From an uncultured Candidatus Rokubacteria bacterium (GTDB lineage: Bacteria; Methylomirabilota; Methylomirabilia; Rokubacteriales; CSP1-6), in NCBI GenBank assembly GCA_963841755.1, contig CAWJDX010000009.1, positions 10,880 through 74,879 of the forward strand: 64,000 nucleotides of DNA, read 5' to 3'. Positions 1-12,255 of the stretch are shown here, in pieces. Position 1 is the first letter of the stretch; each line of letters starts with the position of its first letter. Made by a program: the position numbers and the translations under genes. A model generated the notes under the pieces. The model was not told the DNA's origin and did not search any database. It saw nothing but the letters and a program-made list of their open reading frames with translations.

Positions 1-2
1 GC

Positions 3-1442
3 CGCCGGGTCTGGGTCATGGGCGAGGGGCTGGTCGAGGACGTCACCGTCCACCCGGCCACCCGTCCGATGGTCGACGAGTACGCCGCGTGGTACGACCG
101 CCACCACGATCCGGCGTGGCAGGACGTGCTCCTGACCGCGCCCGACGAGCGGGGCGCGCGCCGGCCGTGGGCTTTCGCTACGCCGCGGACCCCGGCCGAT
201 CTGCGCGCGATGGGCCGGAGCTACGCCGCGACGATCTTCCTCACCGCGGGCAACATGACCCACACCCCCGGCTACGGGAACCTCATCGCGCTCGGCATCC
301 AGGACGTGGTCCGGCAGCGCAAGGTCTCGCCCGAGCAGGGCGCGAGCGCCGCGGCGTATCGCGACCTGCTCGCCCGCACCGGACGCTTCCTCACGTTCTC
401 GGCCGGCGCGGCCACCATCGGCTACCGGCTCCGCGAGGATCCCGACCAGCGGGCGGCGCTCCGCATCGTCCGCGAGACCGGCGCCGGCCTCGTGCTGAGC
501 GGCAAGGTGGGCATGCACACGAGCCCGGTCTACGCGGAGGACGTCTACGTCGGCGCGCACTCCGGGGTGGATCGCGACGGCCACCGGGCCACGTTCATCG
601 TGCCGGTGAACGCGCCCGGCGTCACCGTGCTGTGCCGCAAGGTCTCGGCCCGCCACGCGAACCCGTTCCTCGCGCCGCTCAGCAGCCGCTTCGACGAGCT
701 GGACGGGCAGCTCTGGCTCGAGGAGGTGCTGGTGCCGTGGGAGCGCGTGTTCCTCACCGAGGCGTCGCCCGATCCGATCGCGGCGTGGTGCTTCTGGCAT
801 CAGCTCTACGCCTGGCTCGCGAAGGCCGAGTTCACGCTGGGGCTCGCGCTGGCGTGCGCCCACGCGATGGGCCTCCGGGACCACGAGCCGACCATCGAGC
901 ACCTGATGGACCTGGTGGTCGACGTGCAGACCGTCCGGAGCTGCCAGACCGCGGCCGAGCTGGATCCGGACGTCTCGGAGGAGGGCTACTGCATGCCCGG
1001 CCGCGCCCACGTGGCCGCGGGCAGCATCGCGATGCAGAAGGCGCGGCAGCGCATGGCGGAGATTCTGCGGATCGTGCCCGGCTCGTCGCTCGTGGTGGCG
1101 CCGTCGGACAAGGACCTGACCTCGCCCGAGGTGGGCGCCGGCCTCGAGGAGTCGTTCGGCGGGGGCGAGTACACCGCGCTGCAGCGCGCGGCCCTGCTCC
1201 AGCTGGCCGCCGACCACGTGGCCTCGGCGCTGGACGGCCGCGAGTCCGCGTTCGAGCTGCACGCCAACGGCGGGCTCGTGGCCTGGCGCGCCCGTCTCCG
1301 GCGCGCGTTCCCCGACTACAACGCGCTCGCCAACGGCGTGCTGCGCGCCCTGAGCCTCGACATGCCGGCGATCGACCTGGACTCGCTCCGTGCGATCGCC
1401 CTGCCGCAGCGCCGCCCGGTTTCGCCTCCGCGCCGGGCCTAG
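3..1442 (+). CDS. 4-hydroxyphenylacetate 3-hydroxylase family flavin monooxygenase, oxygenase component (HpaB-like), 5' partial
   Basis: Frame is open from the window edge (RRVWVMGE..VEDVTVHPATR). Family-like segments LSGKVGMHT, ATFIVPVNAPGV, LSSRFDELD and FELHANGG. Confidence 0.75.
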   Translation, partial: RRVWVMGEGLVEDVTVHPATRPMVDEYAAWYDRHHDPAWQDVLLTAPDERGARRPWAFATPRTPADLRAMGRSYAATIFLTAGNMTHTPGYGNLIALGIQDVVRQRKVSPEQGASAAAYRDLLARTGRFLTFSAGAATIGYRLREDPDQRAALRIVRETGAGLVLSGKVGMHTSPVYAEDVYVGAHSGVDRDGHRATFIVPVNAPGVTVLCRKVSARHANPFLAPLSSRFDELDGQLWLEEVLVPWERVFLTEASPDPIAAWCFWHQLYAWLAKAEFTLGLALACAHAMGLRDHEPTIEHLMDLVVDVQTVRSCQTAAELDPDVSEEGYCMPGRAHVAAGSIAMQKARQRMAEILRIVPGSSLVVAPSDKDLTSPEVGAGLEESFGGGEYTALQRAALLQLAADHVASALDGRESAFELHANGGLVAWRARLRRAFPDYNALANGVLRALSLDMPAIDLDSLRAIALPQRRPVSPPRRA

Positions 1443-1447
1443 GTGGC

Positions 1448-1496
1448 CCCCTCACCCCGCGCCCCTCACCCTGCCCTCTCCCCGGAGGGGAGAGGG
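1448..1496 (+). repeat. REP-like palindrome, family A (cccctcaccctgccctctcccc-gga-ggggagaggg), intergenic between convergent genes
   Basis: Perfect 10-bp stem (1474-1483/1487-1496) with a 3-nt loop, and a duplicated cccctcacc module (1448, 1462). Nearly identical copies at 5519-5562 and 5949-5992. May also act as a terminator. Confidence 0.85.
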
Positions 1497-1509
1497 TGGG
1501 TGGAGGAGG

Positions 1510-3120
1510 TTACTTGCCTTCGAGGGCGGCGAGGGGGGCGTAGTCGGCGGTGGAGCCGTGGCCGCCCGCGAACTTCGCGGGCTCGATGCCGGCCTTCTTC
1601 ACGCCCGCGACCAGCGCGGCGAGACCCGGGTTGAGCTTGTCCGGCAGCGGCCCCGCGCCCGGGCTCCAGATGTCGGTCGCGTAGGCGAGCTTGGCGTCGG
1701 GGACGAAGCCGATCAGCAGGCCCTGCGCGTGCGGGTTGGGCTCGATCGCGTAGACCTGCACCTCGCGCTGCCCGTCGATGATCGAGTACTTGTCCGCGAC
1801 CTCGACGATCGGGGTGCGGGAGAGATCCTGCGGCGAGAGATCGGGGTTGCGCGTGTACGGCGCGGCCAGCACGCGGCGATAGTGCTCGGTGGTGCCCTTG
1901 CCCACGACCAGCGTGGCCCCCGTGCTCGCGTAGGCCCGGAGCCCGCCCGCGTGGTCCATGTGGTGATGGGTGAGCACGAGGTACTTCACGGGCTTGCCCA
2001 GGTACTTCGCGCGCAGCGTGCTGAGCGTCCAGTTCGACTGCCAGTCGGAGACCGGCGAGTCGAACACCACGAGCGAGTCCTTCATCTCCACGACCAGGCT
2101 GTTGTGCGAGCCGCCCACCACGTGCTGGATGCCGGGGCCCAGCTCCACCAGGCGCAGGCTGCCGGTCGCCCGCCGGTCGAAGCTCGGCGCCTCCGAGTCG
2201 AGATAGGTGCCGATGAACTGGCGGCGGATGACCCACTGGTACGGCACGTTGCGGTCGGCGGGCCCGGCCGCTCCCTCGCGGAACGCGGCGGGGATCGCCA
2301 CCCGGTCGGCGGCGACCGGCGCGTTGATCTTGACCTCGGTGATCTTGGCGTCGACCACGGTGCGGCCGTTCAGCTCGTACTTCTGCGACGTGGCGACCTG
2401 CACGCCCTCGACCACCTGCCAGTCGGCCAGCACCAGGTCGTAGGTGACGTCGCCCCAGATGTTGTCGTAGTCGAGCGTGCGCACCCGCGCGGGCAGACCG
2501 GTGGTGCGGTCGAACATCACGGTGAAGGTCTGGGTGACCGCGCGGTAGGTCACCGCCGGGTAGCTGGCGCCGCCCACCGTGACGTCCCGGGTGGCCGCGA
2601 CGCGGTCGGGGTTCTTCGACATCTCGAGCAGCAGCACCGGCGAGGTGCGGAGCAGCTCGCGCTGGACGGCGGCCAGCCGCAGACTCGACATGGAGTGCGC
2701 GGGCGGGTTCGACTCCAGGCTCTGCTTGTTGCGCCCGCTGCTGTCGATGCCGGCCACGTAGCCGGCCTCCGCGGTGACGATCTCGCTGAAGGTGTAGGAC
2801 CGCGGCGCCGGGTACTCGTACTTGCGCACCCAGTCCATGCGGGTCGCGCGGCCGCTCACGTCGGTGTCCATCACGAGCGTCGACTCGTTGGCGAAGCGCA
2901 TCTCCCCGCCGGCCACCGCGGACTGCTCGGGCTCCCAGTAGCGCACCGTCGCCTTCTGGGAGACGGTCTTGACCGCGGTCAGCGCGTCGGCGCCGCCCTG
3001 GGCCTGGAGGCCCCGGGCCACGAGGTCCGGGCCGCCGCCCGACATGGAGGCGCAGGCGGCGACGACCAGCGCGATGACCAGCGAAACGGCGAGCGTCGTT
3101 GCGGCACGCTTCGTCTTCAT
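1510..3120 (-). CDS. MBL-fold metallo-hydrolase with N-terminal extension, probable lipoprotein
   Basis: Signal peptide with lipobox VVAAC. THHHMDH metal motif, with downstream H (PHAQG, GGHG). Confidence 0.8.
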   Translation of the reverse strand: MKTKRAATTLAVSLVIALVVAACASMSGGGPDLVARGLQAQGGADALTAVKTVSQKATVRYWEPEQSAVAGGEMRFANESTLVMDTDVSGRATRMDWVRKYEYPAPRSYTFSEIVTAEAGYVAGIDSSGRNKQSLESNPPAHSMSSLRLAAVQRELLRTSPVLLLEMSKNPDRVAATRDVTVGGASYPAVTYRAVTQTFTVMFDRTTGLPARVRTLDYDNIWGDVTYDLVLADWQVVEGVQVATSQKYELNGRTVVDAKITEVKINAPVAADRVAIPAAFREGAAGPADRNVPYQWVIRRQFIGTYLDSEAPSFDRRATGSLRLVELGPGIQHVVGGSHNSLVVEMKDSLVVFDSPVSDWQSNWTLSTLRAKYLGKPVKYLVLTHHHMDHAGGLRAYASTGATLVVGKGTTEHYRRVLAAPYTRNPDLSPQDLSRTPIVEVADKYSIIDGQREVQVYAIEPNPHAQGLLIGFVPDAKLAYATDIWSPGAGPLPDKLNPGLAALVAGVKKAGIEPAKFAGGHGSTADYAPLAALEGK

Positions 3121-3224
3121 ATGGGGGTCCCCTCCGGGGGTGTTTGGTTGCCGGACAGTATAGCCGAGGCCATGCCGAGGGTGCGCTCTTGGGATAGGAT
3201 AGGCAGCCGGCGGCCACCACGAAG

Positions 3225-4253
3225 GTGCACCGGAGCGGAGGCGTCATGACGGGGGTCGGGCTCGGGCAGGGGGGAGCGGTGTCGCGCCGGGCCGTGCTCG
3301 CCCTGCTGCCGGGCCTGCTCGCCCTCTGGGCGTCCCCCGCACTGGCCCAGCGGTCGGCCGGCCCCGCCCGCATCGGCTGGCTCTCGTACATCAGCCAGCC
3401 CGACGTGGGCCTGACGAACCTCCGGGAGGGGCTCGGCGAGCTGGGATACGTCGAGGGCAAGGGCTACGTGCTGATCCCGCGCTTCGCGGACGGGGACTTC
3501 ACCCGGCTCCCCAGGCTGGTCGACGAGCTGATGGTCGAGCGCATCGACGTGCTGGTCTCGCGCGGCCCCTCGGTGGACTACACGGTGCCGGTCCGGTCCC
3601 GCGTGCCGGTGGTGTTCGCCTACAGCGGGGATCCGGTCGCGGCCGGCTTCGCGGACAGCCTGGCCAAGCCCGGGCGCAACATGACCGGCATCACGTTCAT
3701 GGCGCTCGAGCTCTCGGCCAAGCGGGTCGAGGTGCTGAAGGAGCTGGTGCCGCAGGCCACCCAGATCGCGCTGCTCTCGAACCCGGAGCACGCGGGCGAG
3801 CTCGCGGAGTACAAGGTGACCGAGGACGCGGCCCGCCGCGTCGGCGCCACCATCACCCGCTTCCTGGCCCGGAGCCCCCGCGAGCTGCCGACCGTGTTCG
3901 ACGAGATCCGCGCCGCGCGCCCCGGGGCCATGCTCGTGTTCCCGGATTCCCTCACGCTCGCGCGCCGCCAGGAGATCGTGGACTTCGCGGCCCGGGAGCG
4001 GATCCCCAGCATGTTCGGCTGGACCGAGTTCACCGACGTCGGCGGCCTCGCGTGCTACGGGCCGAGCGTGCTCCCGAGCTTCAAGCTCCTGGCCAAGTTC
4101 GTGGACAAGGTGCTCAAGGGCGCCGAGGCGGGCAAGGTGCCCATCGAGCAGGTCAGCCGCATCTCGCTGACGATCAACATGACGACGGCGCGCCGGATGG
4201 GCCTGGCCGTGCCGTCGTCGGTCCTGGCCCGGGCCGATCGCGTCATCGAATAG
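3225..4253 (+). CDS. Orphan ABC transporter substrate-binding protein (ABC_sub_bind / Trp-Tyr-binding type)
   Basis: SRRAVL signal-like N-terminus, GDPVAAGF..SLAKPGRNMTG and C-terminal LARADRVIE. The start may be 3246. Confidence 0.8.
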   Translation: MHRSGGVMTGVGLGQGGAVSRRAVLALLPGLLALWASPALAQRSAGPARIGWLSYISQPDVGLTNLREGLGELGYVEGKGYVLIPRFADGDFTRLPRLVDELMVERIDVLVSRGPSVDYTVPVRSRVPVVFAYSGDPVAAGFADSLAKPGRNMTGITFMALELSAKRVEVLKELVPQATQIALLSNPEHAGELAEYKVTEDAARRVGATITRFLARSPRELPTVFDEIRAARPGAMLVFPDSLTLARRQEIVDFAARERIPSMFGWTEFTDVGGLACYGPSVLPSFKLLAKFVDKVLKGAEAGKVPIEQVSRISLTINMTTARRMGLAVPSSVLARADRVIE

Positions 4254-4262
4254 CGCCAACCA

Positions 4263-5264
4263 GTGGTGAAGGAGACGCTCATGGGCGAGCGAGAGCTGAC
4301 GTACGGGGACGCGGTCAAGGAAGCCATCGCGGAGGAGATGCGGCGCGACCCGCGCGTCTTCATCATCGGGGAGGACATCGCGGAGGCGGGCCATCCCTTC
4401 AAGACCCTGGTCGGGCTGGTGCAGGAGTTCGGCACCGAGCGCGTGATCGACACGCCGATCTCCGAGCCCGGCTACGCGGGCATCGGCGTCGGCGCGGCCA
4501 TGACCGGCATGCGCCCGGTGGTGGACGTGATGTTCGGCGACTTCATCACCCTGACCATGGACCAGATGGTGAACCAGGCCGCCAAGGCGCACTACATGTC
4601 GGGCGGCAAGATCAAGGTGCCGATCGTCTTCCGCACCACGCTCGGGGCCACCCGCCGCTCGGCCGCCCAGCACTCGCAGTCGCTCCACGCCTGGGTGAGC
4701 CACATCCCCGGCCTCAAGGTGGCGCTGCCCTCCGGCCCCTACGAGGCCAAGGGGCTCATGAAGACCGCCATCCGCGACGACAGCCCGGTGGTCATCTTCG
4801 AGGACAAGATGATGTACCGGATGAAGGGCCCGGTGCCGGAGGGCGACTACACGATCCCGTTCGGCGTCGCCGAGGTGAAGCGCGCGGGCAAGGACATCAC
4901 CATCGTCGCCACCAGCAGCATGGTGGGCGTGGCGCTCGGCGCGGCCAAGATGCTGGAGGACGCGGGCATCAGCGCGGAGGTGATCGACCCGCGCACCACC
5001 TGGCCGCTCGACAAGCAGGCGCTGATCGAGTCGGCCAAGAAGACCTCGCGCGCGCTGGTGGTGGACGAGGGCTACGAGCGCTACGGCGTCACCGCCGAGA
5101 TGGCCGCGGTCATCGCGGAGGGCGCCTTCTACTACCTGGACGCGCCGGTCAAGCGCATGGGCGCCATGGACGTGCCGGTGCCGTTCTCCCCCGTGCTCGA
5201 AGACCTCACGGTCCCGTCGGAGAAGACCGTCTTCGAGGCCGCCCGCACCCTATGCCGCAAGTAA
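4263..5264 (+). CDS. 2-oxoacid/acetoin dehydrogenase E1 beta subunit
   Basis: GEDIA, DTPISE, AAQHSQS and EVIDPRT motifs. ATG alternative at 4281. Confidence 0.92.
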   Translation: MVKETLMGERELTYGDAVKEAIAEEMRRDPRVFIIGEDIAEAGHPFKTLVGLVQEFGTERVIDTPISEPGYAGIGVGAAMTGMRPVVDVMFGDFITLTMDQMVNQAAKAHYMSGGKIKVPIVFRTTLGATRRSAAQHSQSLHAWVSHIPGLKVALPSGPYEAKGLMKTAIRDDSPVVIFEDKMMYRMKGPVPEGDYTIPFGVAEVKRAGKDITIVATSSMVGVALGAAKMLEDAGISAEVIDPRTTWPLDKQALIESAKKTSRALVVDEGYERYGVTAEMAAVIAEGAFYYLDAPVKRMGAMDVPVPFSPVLEDLTVPSEKTVFEAARTLCRK

Positions 5265-5271
5265 TTCTCTG

Positions 5272-6653
5272 ATGGCGACCAACGTCATCATGCCCGCGCT
5301 CGAGCTGGCCCAGGAGACCGGCAAGCTCCTGCGCTGGATCAAGGCGCCGGGCGACACGGTGCGCAAGGGCGAGCCCATCGCCGAGATCGAGACCGACAAG
5401 GTCACGATCGAGCTCGAGGCCCCCGCCTCCGGCGTCCTGAGCGCGGTCACCGCCCAGGAAGGCGACGTCGTCCCCGTCGGCCACACCATCGCCCAGATCG
5501 CCGCCCCCAACGAAGCCGCCTCCCCCCTCTCCCCTCTGGGGAGAGGGCAGGGTGAGGGGCCCAAAGGTGAGGGGCCCAAAGGTGAGGGGCCCAAAGGTGA
5601 GGGGCCCGCGCCGAAGCGCCCCCCGGCGACACGCGCCCGAAAGCCTCCCCCCTCGCCCGCAAGATCGCCGAGGAGCACGGTGTCGACCTCGCCCGCGTCA
5701 AGACCGCGAGCGGCAAGATCGAGAAGGCCGACGTGCTCGCCTTCGTCGAGAGCCAGCGCGTGGTCGCGGCGCCGACGAATGGCTCGGCGGGGCGCCTCGT
5801 CGCCGCGTCGCCGAAGGCGCGGCGGCTGGCGGCGGAGCGCGGGATCGATCTGCGCGCGCTGAAGGGGTCGGGGCCGGGGGGCGCGGTGCTGACGCTGGAT
5901 GTGCCGGAGGCCACTGCGCCTTCCACCACTACCAAGCCCCTCACCACCGGGCCCCTCACCCTGCCCTCTCCCCAGAGGGGAGAGGGGGGAGGGGTGGGGA
6001 CGGTGTGGCGGATCATGGCGGAGCGGATGACCGCGTCGTGGACGAGCGCGCCGCACTTCTACCTGGTGCGCGAGGTCAACGTGACGCGGCTGGCCGCGTG
6101 GCTTCAGACGGCGCGCAAGCAGACGGGCGCGCACGTCACGTACACGGACCTGCTGGTCAAGCTGGTGGCGGCCACGCTGGCCCAGCACCCGCGCGTGAAC
6201 GTGTCGTGGAAGGACGGCACGCTCGAGCGTCACGCCGACATCAACATCGGCCTGGCCGTCGCGCTGGAGGACGGGCTCGTCGTCCCGGTGCTCCACAAGG
6301 CCGACACGCTGGGGCTCAAGGAGATCGCCACCCGTCGCGAGGACCTGGTGACGCGGGCCCAGTCCGGCAAGCTGCGGCCGGCCGACATCCAGGGCGGCGT
6401 CTTCACGATCAGCAACCTCGGCATGTACGGCGTGGACGCGTTCAGCGCCATCGTCAATCCGCCGCAGGCCGCGATCCTGGCGGTGGGCCGCATCACCGAT
6501 CGCGTCGTCCCGGTCAACGGCCAGCCGGCCGTGCAGCCGACCATGGTGCTCACGCTGTCCTGCGACCATCGCGCCCTCGACGGCGCCCGGGGCGCCCAGT
6601 TCCTCGGGGCGCTCGCGGATCTCGTCGAGGAGCCGCTGGCCCTGCTCGTCTGA
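5272..6653 (+). CDS. Dihydrolipoamide acyltransferase E2 (lipoyl domain, two PSBDs, catalytic domain); one frameshift near 5620
   Basis: ETDKV lipoyl-Lys, two PSBDs (KASPLARKIA; AASPKARRLA), catalytic DHRALDG. One C is missing in the C run 5619-5624; adding it joins ORF 5272 to the frame of ORF 5733. Confidence 0.9.
5519..5607 (-). repeat. REP-like family A copy inside the E2 linker, with 15-bp tandem tail (ggtgaggggcccaaa x3 + partial)
   Basis: 5519-5562 is the exact 44-bp reverse complement of 5949-5992. The tandem units at 5551, 5566, 5581 and 5596 encode GEGPK repeats. Confidence 0.9.
5937..5992 (+). repeat. REP-like family A copy inside the second E2 linker
   Basis: cccctcacc duplicated at 15-bp spacing (5937, 5952), followed by a 10-bp hairpin. 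Translates as PLTTGPLTLPSPQRGEGG. Confidence 0.9.
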
Positions 6654-6666
6654 GGATAATTCGGAC

Positions 6667-7971
6667 ATGGCATTCACCGACCGCTACGGCCTGACCGTCA
6701 CGACCGATTCACCCGTCGCCTTCGAGCGCTTCCAGAAGGGCATGGACGACCTGCTGTCCTACGGCCCCACCGGCGAGGAGCGGATGGCCGAGGCGCTCCA
6801 GGCCGATCCCGGCCTCGCGGTGGCGCACGCCGGCGTCGCGCTGATGGCGCTGGTGCAGGGCGACGCGGCCACCGCGCGCGACGCCATGGCCCGCGCGCGC
6901 GAGACGGTGGGCGGCGCCACCCGGCGCGAGCGGCAGCACGTGGAGGCGCTCTCCGCCTTCGTGGGCGGCGAGAGCGCCCGCGGCTTCGCGCTCGCGGACG
7001 AGCACGTCAAGGACTTCCCGCGCGACGCGGTGCTGGTGAACCAGGTGAGCAGCGCCATCGCCCTGGCCGGGGCCGCCGATCGCGAGGAGCACCGGGTGGG
7101 CTTCATGGAGCGGCTCGCCCCCGCCTACGGCGACGACTGGTGGTACCAGTCCGCGCTCGCGTTCACCTACCACGAGGTGGACCGCTTCGAGGAGTCGCGG
7201 CGCCTCTCGGAGGCCTCGCTCCGGCAGTACCCGCGCAACGCGCACGCCTCGCACAACCTGGCCCACATCGCGTTCGAGACCCTCGACGTCGCGGCGGGCG
7301 CCGCCTTCCTCGACGAGTGGATGGCGGGCTACGACCGGCGCGCGTCGTTCCACTGCCACCTGGCCTGGCACCAGGCGATGTTCGCGCTCCACGAGGGCCG
7401 CTACGCGAAGGCCCTCGACATCTTCGAGCGCGACATCCTGCGCTCGGGCAACCCGCGCTCGGCGATGACCGACGGCACCGCGCTGCTCTGGCGGGTGAAG
7501 CTCGACGGCGCGAGCGAGCAGCCGCTGCCCTGGCGATCCCTGGCCGAGCTGGCCGCGAAGGTCTCGCGCCCCGGCTTCCTCTTCGGCGAGGTGCACGCCG
7601 CCTTCGCCTACGCCGCGTGCGGCGACGAGGCGGCGCTGGCGAAGATGATGGACGGCCTGCGGGCGCTGGGCGCGAAGGGCCATCCGATCGCGGCCAGCCT
7701 CGTGCTGCCGCTGGTGCAGGGGACCGCCGCGTTCGCGGCGGGCGACCACGCGGGGGCGCTGCGCCTCTTCGAGCCGGTCGAGGCCGAGATGCACCGCATC
7801 GGCGGCAGCCACGCCCAGTGGGAGATCTACGAGGAGACCATGGTGCAGTGCTACCTCGCGCTCGAGCGCTACGACGACGCCACGCGCCTCGTGCGCCGCC
7901 GCCTCGCGCGCCGCGCCTCGCCGCGCGATCAGCAGTGGCTCGCCCGCGCGAGCCGCGGGCCGGCGGCGTGA
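6667..7971 (+). CDS. TPR protein, TTC38-like family
   Basis: Helical TPR pattern. HASHNLAH, HCHLAWH and RIGGSHAQ are typical of TTC38-like proteins. Confidence 0.75.
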   Translation: MAFTDRYGLTVTTDSPVAFERFQKGMDDLLSYGPTGEERMAEALQADPGLAVAHAGVALMALVQGDAATARDAMARARETVGGATRRERQHVEALSAFVGGESARGFALADEHVKDFPRDAVLVNQVSSAIALAGAADREEHRVGFMERLAPAYGDDWWYQSALAFTYHEVDRFEESRRLSEASLRQYPRNAHASHNLAHIAFETLDVAAGAAFLDEWMAGYDRRASFHCHLAWHQAMFALHEGRYAKALDIFERDILRSGNPRSAMTDGTALLWRVKLDGASEQPLPWRSLAELAAKVSRPGFLFGEVHAAFAYAACGDEAALAKMMDGLRALGAKGHPIAASLVLPLVQGTAAFAAGDHAGALRLFEPVEAEMHRIGGSHAQWEIYEETMVQCYLALERYDDATRLVRRRLARRASPRDQQWLARASRGPAA

Positions 7972-7984
7972 AGGCGGGCTGACA

Positions 7985-8461
7985 ATGGCCAAGCTCACGC
8001 TCAAGGTGAACGGCACGAGCCGGGAGGTCGAGTCGGACGATCCCGACATCCCGCTGCTGTACGTCCTGAGGGGAGATCTCGGGCTGACCGGCACCCACTT
8101 CGGCTGCGGCCTCGCGCAGTGCGGGGCGTGCACCGTGCTGGTCGGCGGCCGCGCGGTCCGCTCGTGCATCGCGCCGGCGCGCTCGGTGGTCGGCCAGGAG
8201 GTGGTGACGATCGAGGGCCTGGGCTCGCCCGAGCGCCCCGATCCGGTGCAGGCCGCGTTCATCGCGGAGCAGGCCGCGCAGTGCGGGTACTGCACCGCCG
8301 GCATGGTCATGAGCGCGCGCGCCCTCCTGGCGCAGACGCCCCGCCCGACCGAGCAGCAGGTGCGCGAGGGCCTGGCCGGCAACCTCTGCCGCTGCGGCAG
8401 CCACGCGCGCGTGATCCGGGCGGTGCTCCGCGCGGCCGCCGCCACCCCGAGGGCGCGCTGA
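7985..8461 (+). CDS. (2Fe-2S)-binding small subunit of a xanthine-oxidase-family enzyme (IorA-like)
   Basis: GCGLAQCGACT..C, AQCGYCT and NLCRC motifs. Confidence 0.92.
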   Translation: MAKLTLKVNGTSREVESDDPDIPLLYVLRGDLGLTGTHFGCGLAQCGACTVLVGGRAVRSCIAPARSVVGQEVVTIEGLGSPERPDPVQAAFIAEQAAQCGYCTAGMVMSARALLAQTPRPTEQQVREGLAGNLCRCGSHARVIRAVLRAAAATPRAR

Positions 8462-11541: not shown

Positions 11542-12255
11542 ACGTCGTCGCGAGAATGCTCACGCAGGAGCAGGACGGCATCCCCGGCTACATGGCGCAG
11601 CCGGAAGGGCCCGGCCAGCGGCCGGGCATCCTGATGGTCCACCACGCCCACGGGGTCACCGCCGACTACAAGATCGACGCCTACCGCCTCGCGTGCCTCG
11701 GCTTCAACGTGCTCGCGCCCGATCTGTTCAACATGTTCGGCATCGCGGGCACCGACCACATCGGCATGGGCGCGGATCTGCAGGCCAAGCACGGCGACGA
11801 CGAGTTCCTGGGCAAGATGGACGAGGCCTGGCGCTACCTCATCGACCGCATGCGCTCCGATCCGGCGCGCACCGGCTGCATCGGCCACTGCATGGGCGGG
11901 CGGCTGCTGATCCCCTTCGCGGCCGATCACCCGTCGGTGAAGGCGATCGTGCTGTACTACCCCTCGGTGCGCGACGAGCCCGAGACCTCGCACCGGCCGC
12001 GCCACGCCTTCCACCTGGCCAAGACGCTCCAGTGCGCCTCGCTGGTCTTCTGCGGCGGGGCTCGACTACATCGCGACGCCGGCCATCCAGGGCCCGCTCT
12101 GGCAGAGCTTCATGCAGAACGGCAAGCTCGTGGAGTGGCACTTCTTCTCCGACGCCAACCACGGCTTCCGCCACCCGGACAACGCGGGCTTCCAGCCGTA
12201 CTACGCGGACCTGACCTGGCCGCTGACCACCAGCTTCCTGCAGCGCACCGTCTGA
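11538..12255 (+). CDS. Dienelactone hydrolase family protein; frameshift near 12060
   Basis: GHCMGG nucleophile motif. After removing one G from a gggg run the frame continues to D..ANHGF and stops at 12255. Confidence 0.85.

What the first reader, a model, noticed from the sequence alone, without database searches (positions are those of the whole stretch)
5519..5992. Palindromic DNA repeats inserted in-frame into both flexible linkers of the E2 subunit
Seen: the intergenic hairpin element at 1448-1496 recurs twice inside the E2 CDS as a perfect 44-bp inverted pair (5519-5562 / 5949-5992). One copy follows the lipoyl domain (ASPLSPLGRGQ-GEGPK x3-GEGP), the other precedes the catalytic core (PLTTGPLTLPSPQRGEGG), so they bracket the two PSBDs. 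Established: coding insertions of palindromic elements are known in Rickettsia (RPEs), and E2 linkers tolerate length change. Inference: a mobile REP-like element is writing new peptide into an enzyme, in both orientations. The pair could also invert or excise the PSBD segment or form a long mRNA stem.
Basis: partly seen in the sequence, partly recalled or inferred. Interest (0 to 1): 0.62.

Follow-up and report, generated by a model that had tools for sequence, protein, structure and literature searches.

The report
REP-like repeats encoding E2 linker peptides
A short palindromic DNA repeat that litters the genomes of one genus of uncultivated soil bacteria (Rokubacteria) has long been built into both flexible linkers of a 2-oxoacid dehydrogenase E2 gene, a well-documented new example of a known phenomenon; the reading-frame break beside it is most likely an assembly error.

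Summary
5519-5562 and 5949-5992 are a perfect 44-nt inverted pair, and a third copy lies between convergent genes at 1462-1496. They belong to a REP-like family: a 36-nt core CCCCTCACCCTG-CCCTCTCCCC-NNN-GGGGAGAGGG, often preceded by 15-nt CCCCTCACC units. This 5-Mb MAG has about 89 copies. Genomes of the same genus have 7-185 and sister families 0-9.

The interpretation needs three corrections.
1. The insertions are old. Both linker copies sit in the same place, orientation and frame in nearly all species of the genus. More distant Rokubacteria have plain Ala/Pro linkers.
2. E2 is not in one frame here. The lipoyl domain is out of frame with the rest of the gene, and a G4 run (5601-5604) stands where five short-read relatives have G5. 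This assembly has about one frameshift per 4 kb of conserved coding sequence, so this is probably an assembly error.
3. No RAYT link was found.

New points:
- E2 linkers were colonised independently several times.
- The 15-nt unit number varies between species.
- Copy 1 in this lineage was converted to match copy 2.
- The element also encodes peptide in ABC-F, Fmt, MetRS, ImuB-like and ImuA-like proteins and an aldehyde-oxidase-type subunit.

This is a new member of a known kind.

The parts
1462..1496 (+). Intergenic copy of the element. Tail CCCCTCACCCTG at 1462-1473, hairpin at 1474-1496, and a degenerate CCCCCTCACCCC unit at 1447-1458. It lies in the 67-nt gap between two convergent genes: the HpaB-like gene (stop codon at 1440-1442) and a minus-strand metallo-beta-lactamase-fold gene (ends at 1510).
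4263..5264 (+). E1 beta subunit gene (Transket_pyr + Transketolase_C), immediately upstream of E2.
5272..5505 (+). E2 lipoyl domain (frame of 5272).
5519..5562 (-). Element copy 1, reverse orientation, in linker 1. The hairpin is at 5525-5547. It reads ASPLSPLGRGQGEGP in the lipoyl frame.
5551..5607 (-). Array of 15-nt tail units of copy 1 (GGTGAGGGGCCCAAA x3.8), reading (GEGPK)3-GEGP. Unit number varies between species.
5601..5604 (+). G4 run where five short-read relatives have G5. This is the most likely site of the one-base deficit that puts the lipoyl domain and the rest of E2 in different frames. With G5 the reading is GEG-ARAEAPPGDTRPK-ASPLARK, as in relatives.
5643..5903 (+). Two peripheral-subunit-binding (E3_binding) domains, in the frame of 5274. 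The second spans 5799-5903.
5934..5992 (+). Element copy 2, forward orientation, in linker 2. It has one extra 15-nt unit plus the 36-nt core, with the hairpin at 5964-5986. It reads PLTTGPLTLPSPQRGEGG in frame with the PSBDs and catalytic core, and is predicted to be disordered.
6006..6653 (+). E2 catalytic acyltransferase domain (2-oxoacid_dh, with the DHRALDG motif), including the stop codon at 6651-6653.

Best explanation
The organism is a Candidatus Rokubacteria (Methylomirabilota) MAG. Its genus carries a REP-like family of small GC-rich hairpin repeats. The 36-nt core is CCCCTCACCCTG-CCCTCTCCCC-NNN-GGGGAGAGGG, often preceded by a variable number of 15-nt CCCCTCACC-NNNNNN units. The family lies mostly just downstream of genes.

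Shown by comparison:
- Early in the genus one copy entered E2 linker 1 in reverse orientation and another entered linker 2 in forward orientation.
- Core and units are multiples of three, and five of the six frames are open unless the variable loop supplies a stop. The insertions therefore read through as Pro/Gly/Ser/Leu-rich peptide (TLSPxGRGQGEG and PLTLPSPQRGEG).
- Total linker length stays similar to that of element-free relatives, so element-derived sequence now makes up much of each linker.

Inferred: the peptides serve as ordinary flexible swinging-arm linkers. The insertions were neutral or nearly so and were kept for that reason.

Later evolution at the DNA level (shown by comparison):
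- The number of 15-nt units changes between species. Slippage is the inferred mechanism.
- Further copies entered the same linkers in some lineages.
- Hairpins decayed in other lineages.
- In the window's lineage the loop and distal part of copy 1 were replaced by the sequence of copy 2. The inferred mechanism is gene conversion between the inverted copies. This is why the pair is perfect here.

The frame break between the lipoyl domain and PSBD1 is most likely a one-base error at the G run 5601-5604 in an indel-rich, long-read-type assembly. The real gene probably encodes one continuous E2 (inferred; reads not available).
For: Repeat family:
- 85-89 hairpins in the genome.
- 7-185 full matches per genome in 18 other genomes of the genus, against 0-9 in 12 genomes of sister families. 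Reversed-pattern controls gave 0.
- 28 copies lie between convergent genes and 4 between divergent genes. The genome-wide ratio is 788:787.
- The hairpin folds at about -28 kcal/mol.

Old, shared insertions:
- All 13 same-genus E2 loci with linker 2 resolved carry a copy there, in the same orientation and frame.
- 11 of the 13 carry the linker-1 copy.
- Outgroups at 70-85% identity have Ala/Pro linkers of similar length and no element.

Recurrent colonisation:
- L005, L007 and L024 have an extra forward copy in linker 1.
- L059 has the linker-2 copy in the opposite orientation.
- Several species have a copy upstream of E2.

Linker behaviour: in the AlphaFold2 model, residues 93-120, which include the copy-2 peptide, have pLDDT below 50 and no secondary structure. 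The flanking domains are confidently modelled.

Gene conversion:
- Copy 1 (reverse complement) against copy 2 is 42/44 in the register and 44/44 over 5519-5562 / 5949-5992. In relatives it is 30-37/44.
- The 97%-identical relative L002 has an identical copy 2 (44/44) but differs in copy 1 (38/44).

Assembly error:
- About 22 frameshift junctions in about 85 kb of conserved coding sequence in this genome. The same test among short-read relatives gave 2 in about 110 kb.
- Lipoyl-to-PSBD frame breaks occur only in G000, two Microflora Danica long-read-type MAGs (G012, G013) and L049 (also labelled MFD). No k141/NODE short-read MAG has one.
- L003, L004, L006, L007 and L010 have G5 where the window has G4, and the corrected reading matches their ARAEAPPGDTR.

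Other hosts of the element in this genome: ABC-F, Fmt, MetRS, an IMS-family (ImuB-like) protein, a RecA-like (ImuA-like) protein tail and a molybdopterin aldehyde-oxidase/xanthine-dehydrogenase-type subunit tail.
Against:
- The closest relative, L002, is a short-read MAG and also has G4 at the equivalent unit. It is in frame only because it lacks the following GCGCC. One reading is that G4 was real in the common ancestor and L002 compensated.
- An unequal exchange between a G4 unit and the G5 last unit would produce exactly the window's sequence, including its extra unit.
- Linker function is inferred from position, composition and predicted disorder, not tested. Only copy 2 was modelled.
- The mobilising enzyme is unknown and target-site duplications could not be defined, so 'mobile element' rests on distribution alone.
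- The near-invariance of the core between species could mean it has a function that I have not identified.
Confidence: 0.8

Rival explanations
1. The frameshift is real. A one-base loss, for example by unequal exchange between a G4 unit and the G5 last unit of the 15-nt array, has split E2 in this population. The result is a free lipoyl-domain protein with a junk tail (5272-5862) and a PSBD-plus-core remnant. This would be a pseudogene or a two-piece enzyme.
For: - The assembled sequence reads this way.
- The closest relative, L002, from short reads, also has G4 in the equivalent unit and keeps frame only through a 5-nt difference downstream.
- The window has one more 15-nt unit than L002, as such an exchange would give.
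- Paralogous E2 genes exist in the genome (C2:153680, C5:306722), so loss could be tolerated.
Against: - The assembly has about one frameshift per 4 kb in conserved genes, roughly ten times more than the same test finds among short-read relatives.
- Breaks in this linker occur only in long-read-type MAGs, and one of them (L009) needs two shifts.
- Both halves keep high third-position GC and 97% identity to the intact L002 gene.
- There is no start codon upstream of PSBD1 in the downstream frame. The first listed start in that frame is GTG 5733.
Confidence: 0.1
2. Full-length E2 is made by programmed -1 ribosomal frameshifting at the C CCC CCG run (5619-5625), 15 nt downstream of the G run.
For: C CCC CCG in the lipoyl frame formally fits the X XXY YYZ slippery pattern. 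A -1 shift there would join the lipoyl frame to the PSBD frame, giving ...GEGPAPKRPP-GDTRPKASPLARK (read directly).
Against: - All short-read orthologs encode E2 in one frame, so no conserved frameshift signal exists.
- No stimulatory structure was examined.
- The assembly-wide indel rate explains the break more simply.
Confidence: 0.02
3. The inverted pair is kept because it acts at the nucleic-acid level. It could form a long-range mRNA stem enclosing the PSBD region that modulates translation or decay, or act as a recombination substrate that inverts the PSBD segment.
For: - The two copies pair in the minimum-free-energy fold of 5490-6020 (z = -10 against shuffles).
- The pair is perfect in this genome through conversion.
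- The inverted arrangement is conserved in the genus.
Against: - In relatives the two copies are only 30-37/44 complementary. Some hairpins have decayed without compensatory change (L004, L008, L013, L016).
- Two species lack copy 1, and L059 has the copies in direct orientation.
- No relative has an inverted PSBD segment.
- Translating ribosomes would open such a stem (general knowledge).
Confidence: 0.05
4. Recent, ongoing mobile insertion: the element has only lately jumped into this E2 and is now creating new peptide.
For: - The 44-nt identity of the two copies looks young.
- Copy number differs more than tenfold between species of the genus.
- Extra copies have entered the same linkers in some lineages.
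Against: - Both copies are orthologous across species whose E2 catalytic region is only 81-90% identical.
- The perfect identity is explained by conversion of copy 1 in this lineage.
Confidence: 0.03

Closest known systems
Intragenic REPs (GTAG- and CGTC-tagged palindromic repeats; Di Nocera et al. 2013, PMC3733652)
   Same: - A small GC-rich stem-loop of 20-40 nt in tens to hundreds of copies.
- Lies mainly downstream of genes, between convergent or co-directional ORFs.
- A minority of copies lie inside genes and encode 12-30 residues, sometimes twice in one gene.
- The paper proposes that such copies are tolerated in flexible linkers or loops, and notes error-prone polymerase and repair genes among the hosts. 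Here ImuA-like and ImuB-like genes are hosts.
   Different: - No GTAG or CGTC tag in the consensus.
- No REPtron.
- An asymmetric 12-nt tail plus a variable array of 15-nt units.
- The host phylum (Methylomirabilota/Rokubacteria) was not among the hits in my two literature searches.
- The E2 linker as host, and the genus-wide conservation with repeated re-colonisation, are documented here.
Rickettsia palindromic elements (RPEs; Ogata et al. 2000, as reviewed in PMC10969869)
   Same: Palindromic repeats inserted in frame into unrelated housekeeping genes. They add a peptide that is compatible with protein fold and function, and are conserved among related species.
   Different: RPEs are about 100-150 bp with family-specific conserved peptides, and occur in reduced AT-rich genomes of intracellular bacteria. 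This element is 36 nt plus 15-nt units, in a 71% GC free-living soil lineage. There is no sequence relationship.
Ala/Pro-rich swinging-arm linkers of 2-oxoacid dehydrogenase E2 chains
   Same: Same positions: after the lipoyl domain and before the catalytic core. Similar length, Pro-rich, and copy 2 is predicted to be disordered.
   Different: The sequence comes from a dispersed DNA repeat. It is Gly/Pro/Ser/Leu/Glu/Arg-rich rather than Ala/Pro-rich. Its length changes in 5-residue steps through 15-nt unit gain and loss.

Membership tests
REP (repetitive extragenic palindrome), broad sense | Short (20-40 nt) imperfect palindrome present in many dispersed copies | tested here: met
   The core is 36 nt with a 10-bp stem and a 3-nt loop. 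There are 85-89 copies in 4.97 Mb, with 0 expected by chance in the window..
REP (repetitive extragenic palindrome), broad sense | Predominantly extragenic, downstream of genes (convergent or co-directional contexts) | tested here: met
   28 convergent, 40 co-directional and 4 divergent contexts, against a genome-wide convergent:divergent ratio of 788:787. About 8 of 89 copies are inside or at the end of coding sequence.
RAYT-mobilised REP / REPtron | GTAG (or CGTC) tetranucleotide tag at one end of the palindrome | tested here: not met
   The consensus CCCCTCACCCTGCCCTCTCCCCNNNGGGGAGAGGG, taken from 89 aligned copies, contains neither tag nor its complement. The definition is from PMC3733652.
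RAYT-mobilised REP / REPtron | A Y1 (HUH) transposase gene flanked by copies of the repeat | tested here: not met
   There is one PF01797 gene (G000:C4:268387-269166, minus strand) with no copy within about 1 kb. Twelve homologous loci in relatives show no flanking pair. The gene also occurs in element-free sister genomes. The genome is only 84% complete, so a second gene cannot be excluded.
MITE | Terminal inverted repeats with target-site duplication, 70-300 bp | tested here: inconclusive
   The element is shorter (36 nt plus units). Its only inverted repeat is the hairpin itself. Empty and filled sites (L016 and L011 against the others) are too diverged to define a duplication.
Rickettsia palindromic elements (RPE) | 100-150 bp palindromic element of the Rickettsia families, encoding a conserved peptide | tested here: not met
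   Size, sequence and host all differ. Only the behaviour, in-frame insertion, is shared.
Dihydrolipoamide acyltransferase (E2) of a 2-oxoacid dehydrogenase complex | Lipoyl domain, peripheral-subunit-binding domain(s), and a catalytic domain with the DHRxxDG motif | tested here: met
   Pfam finds Biotin_lipoyl (3.9e-18), E3_binding x2 (1.5e-21) and 2-oxoacid_dh (3.4e-75). SCDHRALDGA is present. E1 beta is directly upstream. The domains lie in two frames in this assembly.

The most novel reading that the evidence does not exclude
The element may be more than a tolerated passenger. It could act as a self-spreading 'linker cassette'. Its 36-nt core and 15-nt units are multiples of three and almost free of stop codons, and they repeatedly colonise inter-domain linkers (E2 at least four times, plus ABC-F, MetRS and ImuB-like proteins). 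Gain and loss of 5-residue units, together with conversion between copies, would then give the lineage a fast way to tune swinging-arm length, and so the reach of the lipoyl arm. Selection would keep the cassette in the E2 linkers.
Probability: 0.12. Interest if true: 0.55.

Novelty: new member of a known kind. Interest (0 to 1): 0.33.

Why it matters
It adds a clean, phylogenetically resolved case of a selfish or structural DNA repeat taken up as protein sequence. The lineage is an uncultivated soil phylum, and the sites are the classic flexible linkers of a textbook multienzyme complex. The case shows recurrent colonisation, step-wise length change and conversion between copies. This helps in understanding how linkers evolve and how much repeat-derived peptide metagenomic proteomes contain. 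It also matters for annotation: TLSPxGRGQGEG and PLTLPSPxRGEG motifs in these proteomes are repeat-derived.

The practical lesson is a caution. This assembly carries about one frameshift per 4 kb of coding sequence, and G/C-run-rich repeats are especially affected. Split genes and 'in-frame stop' findings in this genome need read support.

Tried and rejected
- Rfam at permissive E-value over 1-8000: only chance-level miRNA/snoRNA matches far below the gathering scores. The element is not a curated RNA family.
- RAYT/REPtron hypothesis: rejected for lack of flanking copies and lack of co-occurrence.
- First version of the frameshift census: it was contaminated by gene-boundary artefacts from stop-to-stop ORFs. 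I repeated it with stricter HSP length, identity and gap criteria. The E2 junction itself falls outside those strict criteria because the linker is variable.
- Homopolymer context of the other frameshifts: not obvious from the +/-25-nt contexts. 7 of 19 contain GCAGC or GCTGC, which is only a weak enrichment by my rough estimate, so I did not pursue it.
- GC3-based automatic intragenic/intergenic classification: too crude on its own, so candidates were inspected by translation and Pfam.
- Programmed frameshifting: considered and judged unlikely (see rival explanations).
- Earlier notes of this scan: none concerns this element.

Full report
**Observation**

- The window is G000:C9:10880-74879 of a 4.97-Mb, 32-contig, 71% GC assembly.
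- 5519-5562 and 5949-5992 are exact reverse complements over 44 nt. The arms extend to 57 nt at 95%.
- The hairpin core CCCTCTCCCC-NNN-GGGGAGAGGG occurs three times in the window, at 1474-1496, 5525-5547 and 5964-5986. None is expected in shuffles.
- A perfect 15-nt array (GGTGAGGGGCCCAAA x3.8) follows copy 1 at 5551-5607.
- Pfam finds a lipoyl domain in 5272-5610, and two E3_binding domains plus a 2-oxoacid_dh catalytic domain in 5637-6650. E1 beta lies at 4263-5264.
- So the repeat pair does bracket the two PSBDs of an E2 gene.

- The gene is not in one frame. The lipoyl domain and copy 1 read in the frame of 5272. Everything from PSBD1 onward reads in the frame of 5274.
- In the PSBD frame each GGTGAGGGG unit contains TGA, the last at 5597-5599. 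PSBD1 starts near 5643. The switch must therefore lie within about 5600-5640.

**The organism and the family**

- Record titles of the nearest E2 loci name Candidatus Rokubacteria / Rokuibacteriota / Methylomirabilota MAGs.
- Aligning all genomic copies gives an oriented element. It has a 36-nt core CCCCTCACCCTG-CCCTCTCCCC-NNN-GGGGAGAGGG, often preceded by one to several 15-nt units of the form (G)CCCCTCACC-NNNNN.
- The genome has 85-89 hairpins.
- A 32-nt pattern with up to two mismatches finds 7-185 copies in each of 18 other genomes of the genus. It finds 0-9 in 12 genomes of sister families, and the reversed control gives zero.
- Copies lie between convergent genes 28 times and between divergent genes 4 times, although the two configurations are equally common in the genome (788 against 787). 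Forty more lie between co-directional genes.
- The hairpin folds at about -28 kcal/mol. No Rfam family matches.
- This is the behaviour of REP-type repeats.

**Age of the E2 insertions**

- I compared the E1beta-E2 locus in 19 genomes of the order and in 80 further loci.
- Every member of the genus with the region resolved carries the forward copy in linker 2, in the same frame (PLTLPSPQRGEG).
- Eleven of thirteen carry the reverse copy in linker 1 (TLSPxGRGQGEG).
- G011 lacks the linker-1 copy. G016 has only a GEGEG remnant.
- Rokubacteria whose catalytic domain is 70-85% identical have ordinary Ala/Pro linkers of similar length and no hairpin.
- So the insertions are old and fixed.

**The linkers are a repeated target**

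- L005, L007 and L024 have a second, forward copy in linker 1.
- L059, a more distant MAG, has the linker-1 copy plus a linker-2 copy in the opposite orientation. That must be an independent insertion.
- L092 has only a decayed linker-1 copy.
- Several species have another copy between E1beta and E2.
- Unit numbers differ between species: GEGPK x1-3 and GPLTT x1-3. L012 and L013 have tandem half-hairpin duplications.
- Some lineages show hairpin decay without compensatory change (L004, L008, L013, L016). The stem is therefore not under strong constraint inside the gene.

**Why the pair is perfect here**

- Within relatives, copy 1 (reverse complement) and copy 2 agree at only 30-37 of 44 positions.
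- The 97%-identical relative L002 has a copy 2 identical to the window's (44/44), but its copy 1 differs at six positions (38/44). These lie in the loop and the distal flank.
- At those positions the window's copy 1 now carries the copy 2 sequence (loop AGA and distal flank GGGGGGAGG), as one search shows.
- The simplest reading is a short gene-conversion tract from copy 2, or from an identical copy, into copy 1 in this lineage.

**The frameshift**

- L003, L004, L006, L007 and L010, all short-read MAGs, have GAGGGGG (G5) at the last unit and read GEG-A... The window has GAGGGG (G4) at 5601-5604. With one more G it would read GEG-ARAEAPPGDTRPK-ASPLARK, the genus consensus.
- I tested assembly quality as follows. 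ORFs were taken from about 240 kb of short-read relatives' contigs and laid on G000 by tblastn.
- This gave about 22 distinct frameshift junctions in about 85 kb of conserved coding sequence. The same test among the short-read relatives gave 2 in about 110 kb, both at gene boundaries.
- Breaks between lipoyl domain and PSBD occur only in G000, G012, G013 and L049. G012, G013 and L049 are labelled MFD (Microflora Danica). To my knowledge those are long-read MAGs.
- One of the broken genes (L009) needs two shifts.
- In G000 the MetRS gene also changes frame right at its element copy.
- I therefore rate an assembly indel at about 0.85-0.9.
- Caveats: L002 also has G4 and is in frame only because the next five bases are absent. 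An unequal exchange between a G4 unit and the G5 last unit would create the window's sequence. Reads could not be consulted.

**Protein level**

- An AlphaFold2 model of 5637-6650 with a 33-sequence alignment has confident PSBDs and catalytic domain. Residues 93-120, which include the copy-2 peptide, have pLDDT below 50 and no secondary structure. This fits a flexible linker.
- Read directly from the consensus, five of the six frames of the element are open unless the variable loop supplies a stop. Core (36 nt) and unit (15 nt) are multiples of three. In-frame tolerance is therefore easy.

**Other hosts in the same genome**

- An ABC-F ATPase, between the second ABC domain and the C-terminal domain.
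- Methionyl-tRNA formyltransferase, inside the C-terminal domain, with three units.
- Methionyl-tRNA synthetase, between the anticodon-binding and tRNA_bind domains.
- An IMS-family (ImuB-like) protein.
- The C-terminal tails of a RecA-like (ImuA-like) protein and of a molybdopterin aldehyde-oxidase/xanthine-dehydrogenase-type subunit.
- About 8 of 89 copies are coding.

**Mobility**

- There is only one Y1_Tnp (PF01797) gene in the genome. It has no element within about 1 kb.
- Homologous loci in relatives show no flanking pair, and the gene is also present in sister genomes that lack the element.
- The consensus has no GTAG or CGTC tag.
- The element behaves like a REP but fails the tests for a RAYT-mobilised REP. 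How it spreads is unknown.

**Nucleic-acid-level roles**

- The two copies dominate the predicted fold of 5490-6020 (z = -10).
- However, the weak complementarity in relatives, the loss of copy 1 in two species, the direct orientation in L059 and the absence of any inverted PSBD segment all argue against a conserved RNA stem or inversion switch.

**Comparison with the literature**

- Intragenic REPs are described in Di Nocera et al. 2013 (PMC3733652). That paper covers two insertions in one gene, placement in flexible linkers or loops, and a bias to repair and error-prone polymerase genes.
- In-frame Rickettsia palindromic elements are reviewed in PMC10969869.
- My two searches found no description of such a family in Rokubacteria.

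**Verdict**

- This is a real and nicely documented new member of a known kind.
- Added points are genus-wide conservation, recurrent colonisation of E2 linkers, 5-residue step variation and an intragenic conversion event.
- The frame break is most likely an assembly artefact.

Noticed in passing
G000 genome-wide; in the window e.g. near 12056, 15109, 23156, 23633 and 54907 (contig C9 22935, 25988, 34035, 34512, 65786): The assembly has about 22 frameshift junctions per 85 kb of conserved coding sequence, against 2 per 110 kb among short-read relatives. Split genes and apparent in-frame stops elsewhere in this genome need read support. 7 of 19 junction contexts contain GCAGC or GCTGC, which could hint at methylation-linked basecalling errors.
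   Followed up: partly
G000:C21:7807-7843; C3:216138-216217; C4:221898-221934; C17:233519-233583; C17:234588-234667; C6:25595-25631: The same element is translated in an ABC-F ATPase, Fmt, MetRS (with another frame change at the element), an IMS-family ImuB-like protein, and as C-terminal tails of a RecA-like ImuA-like protein and a molybdopterin aldehyde-oxidase/xanthine-dehydrogenase-type subunit.
   Followed up: partly
L059:848-870 and 1074-1096 (JBKPDT010000191.1): A more distant Methylomirabilota MAG has the linker-2 copy in the opposite orientation, so its two E2 copies are direct repeats. This is an independent insertion. As direct repeats they could in principle delete the PSBD segment.
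   Followed up: partly
window 3225-4253: The gene directly upstream of E1 beta is an ABC-transporter substrate-binding protein (PF04392), not an E1 alpha subunit. No E1 alpha gene is adjacent to this E1beta-E2 pair.
   Followed up: no
G000:C4:268387-269166 (minus strand): A single-copy Y1/HUH transposase-like gene (motifs GIYHVTARGN and SNHYHLLL) is conserved as a single copy in many genomes of the order. It is not flanked by repeats, so it looks domesticated rather than mobile.
   Followed up: partly
L012:1351-1503 and L013:1318-1503 (linker 1 of G002 and G007): Linker 1 carries tandem duplications of half of the hairpin, reading SSLSPPGS/SSLSPQGS or ATLSPQGSS/ATLSPQENS repeated three times before the complete copy. 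This is a second way in which the element lengthens the linker.
   Followed up: no
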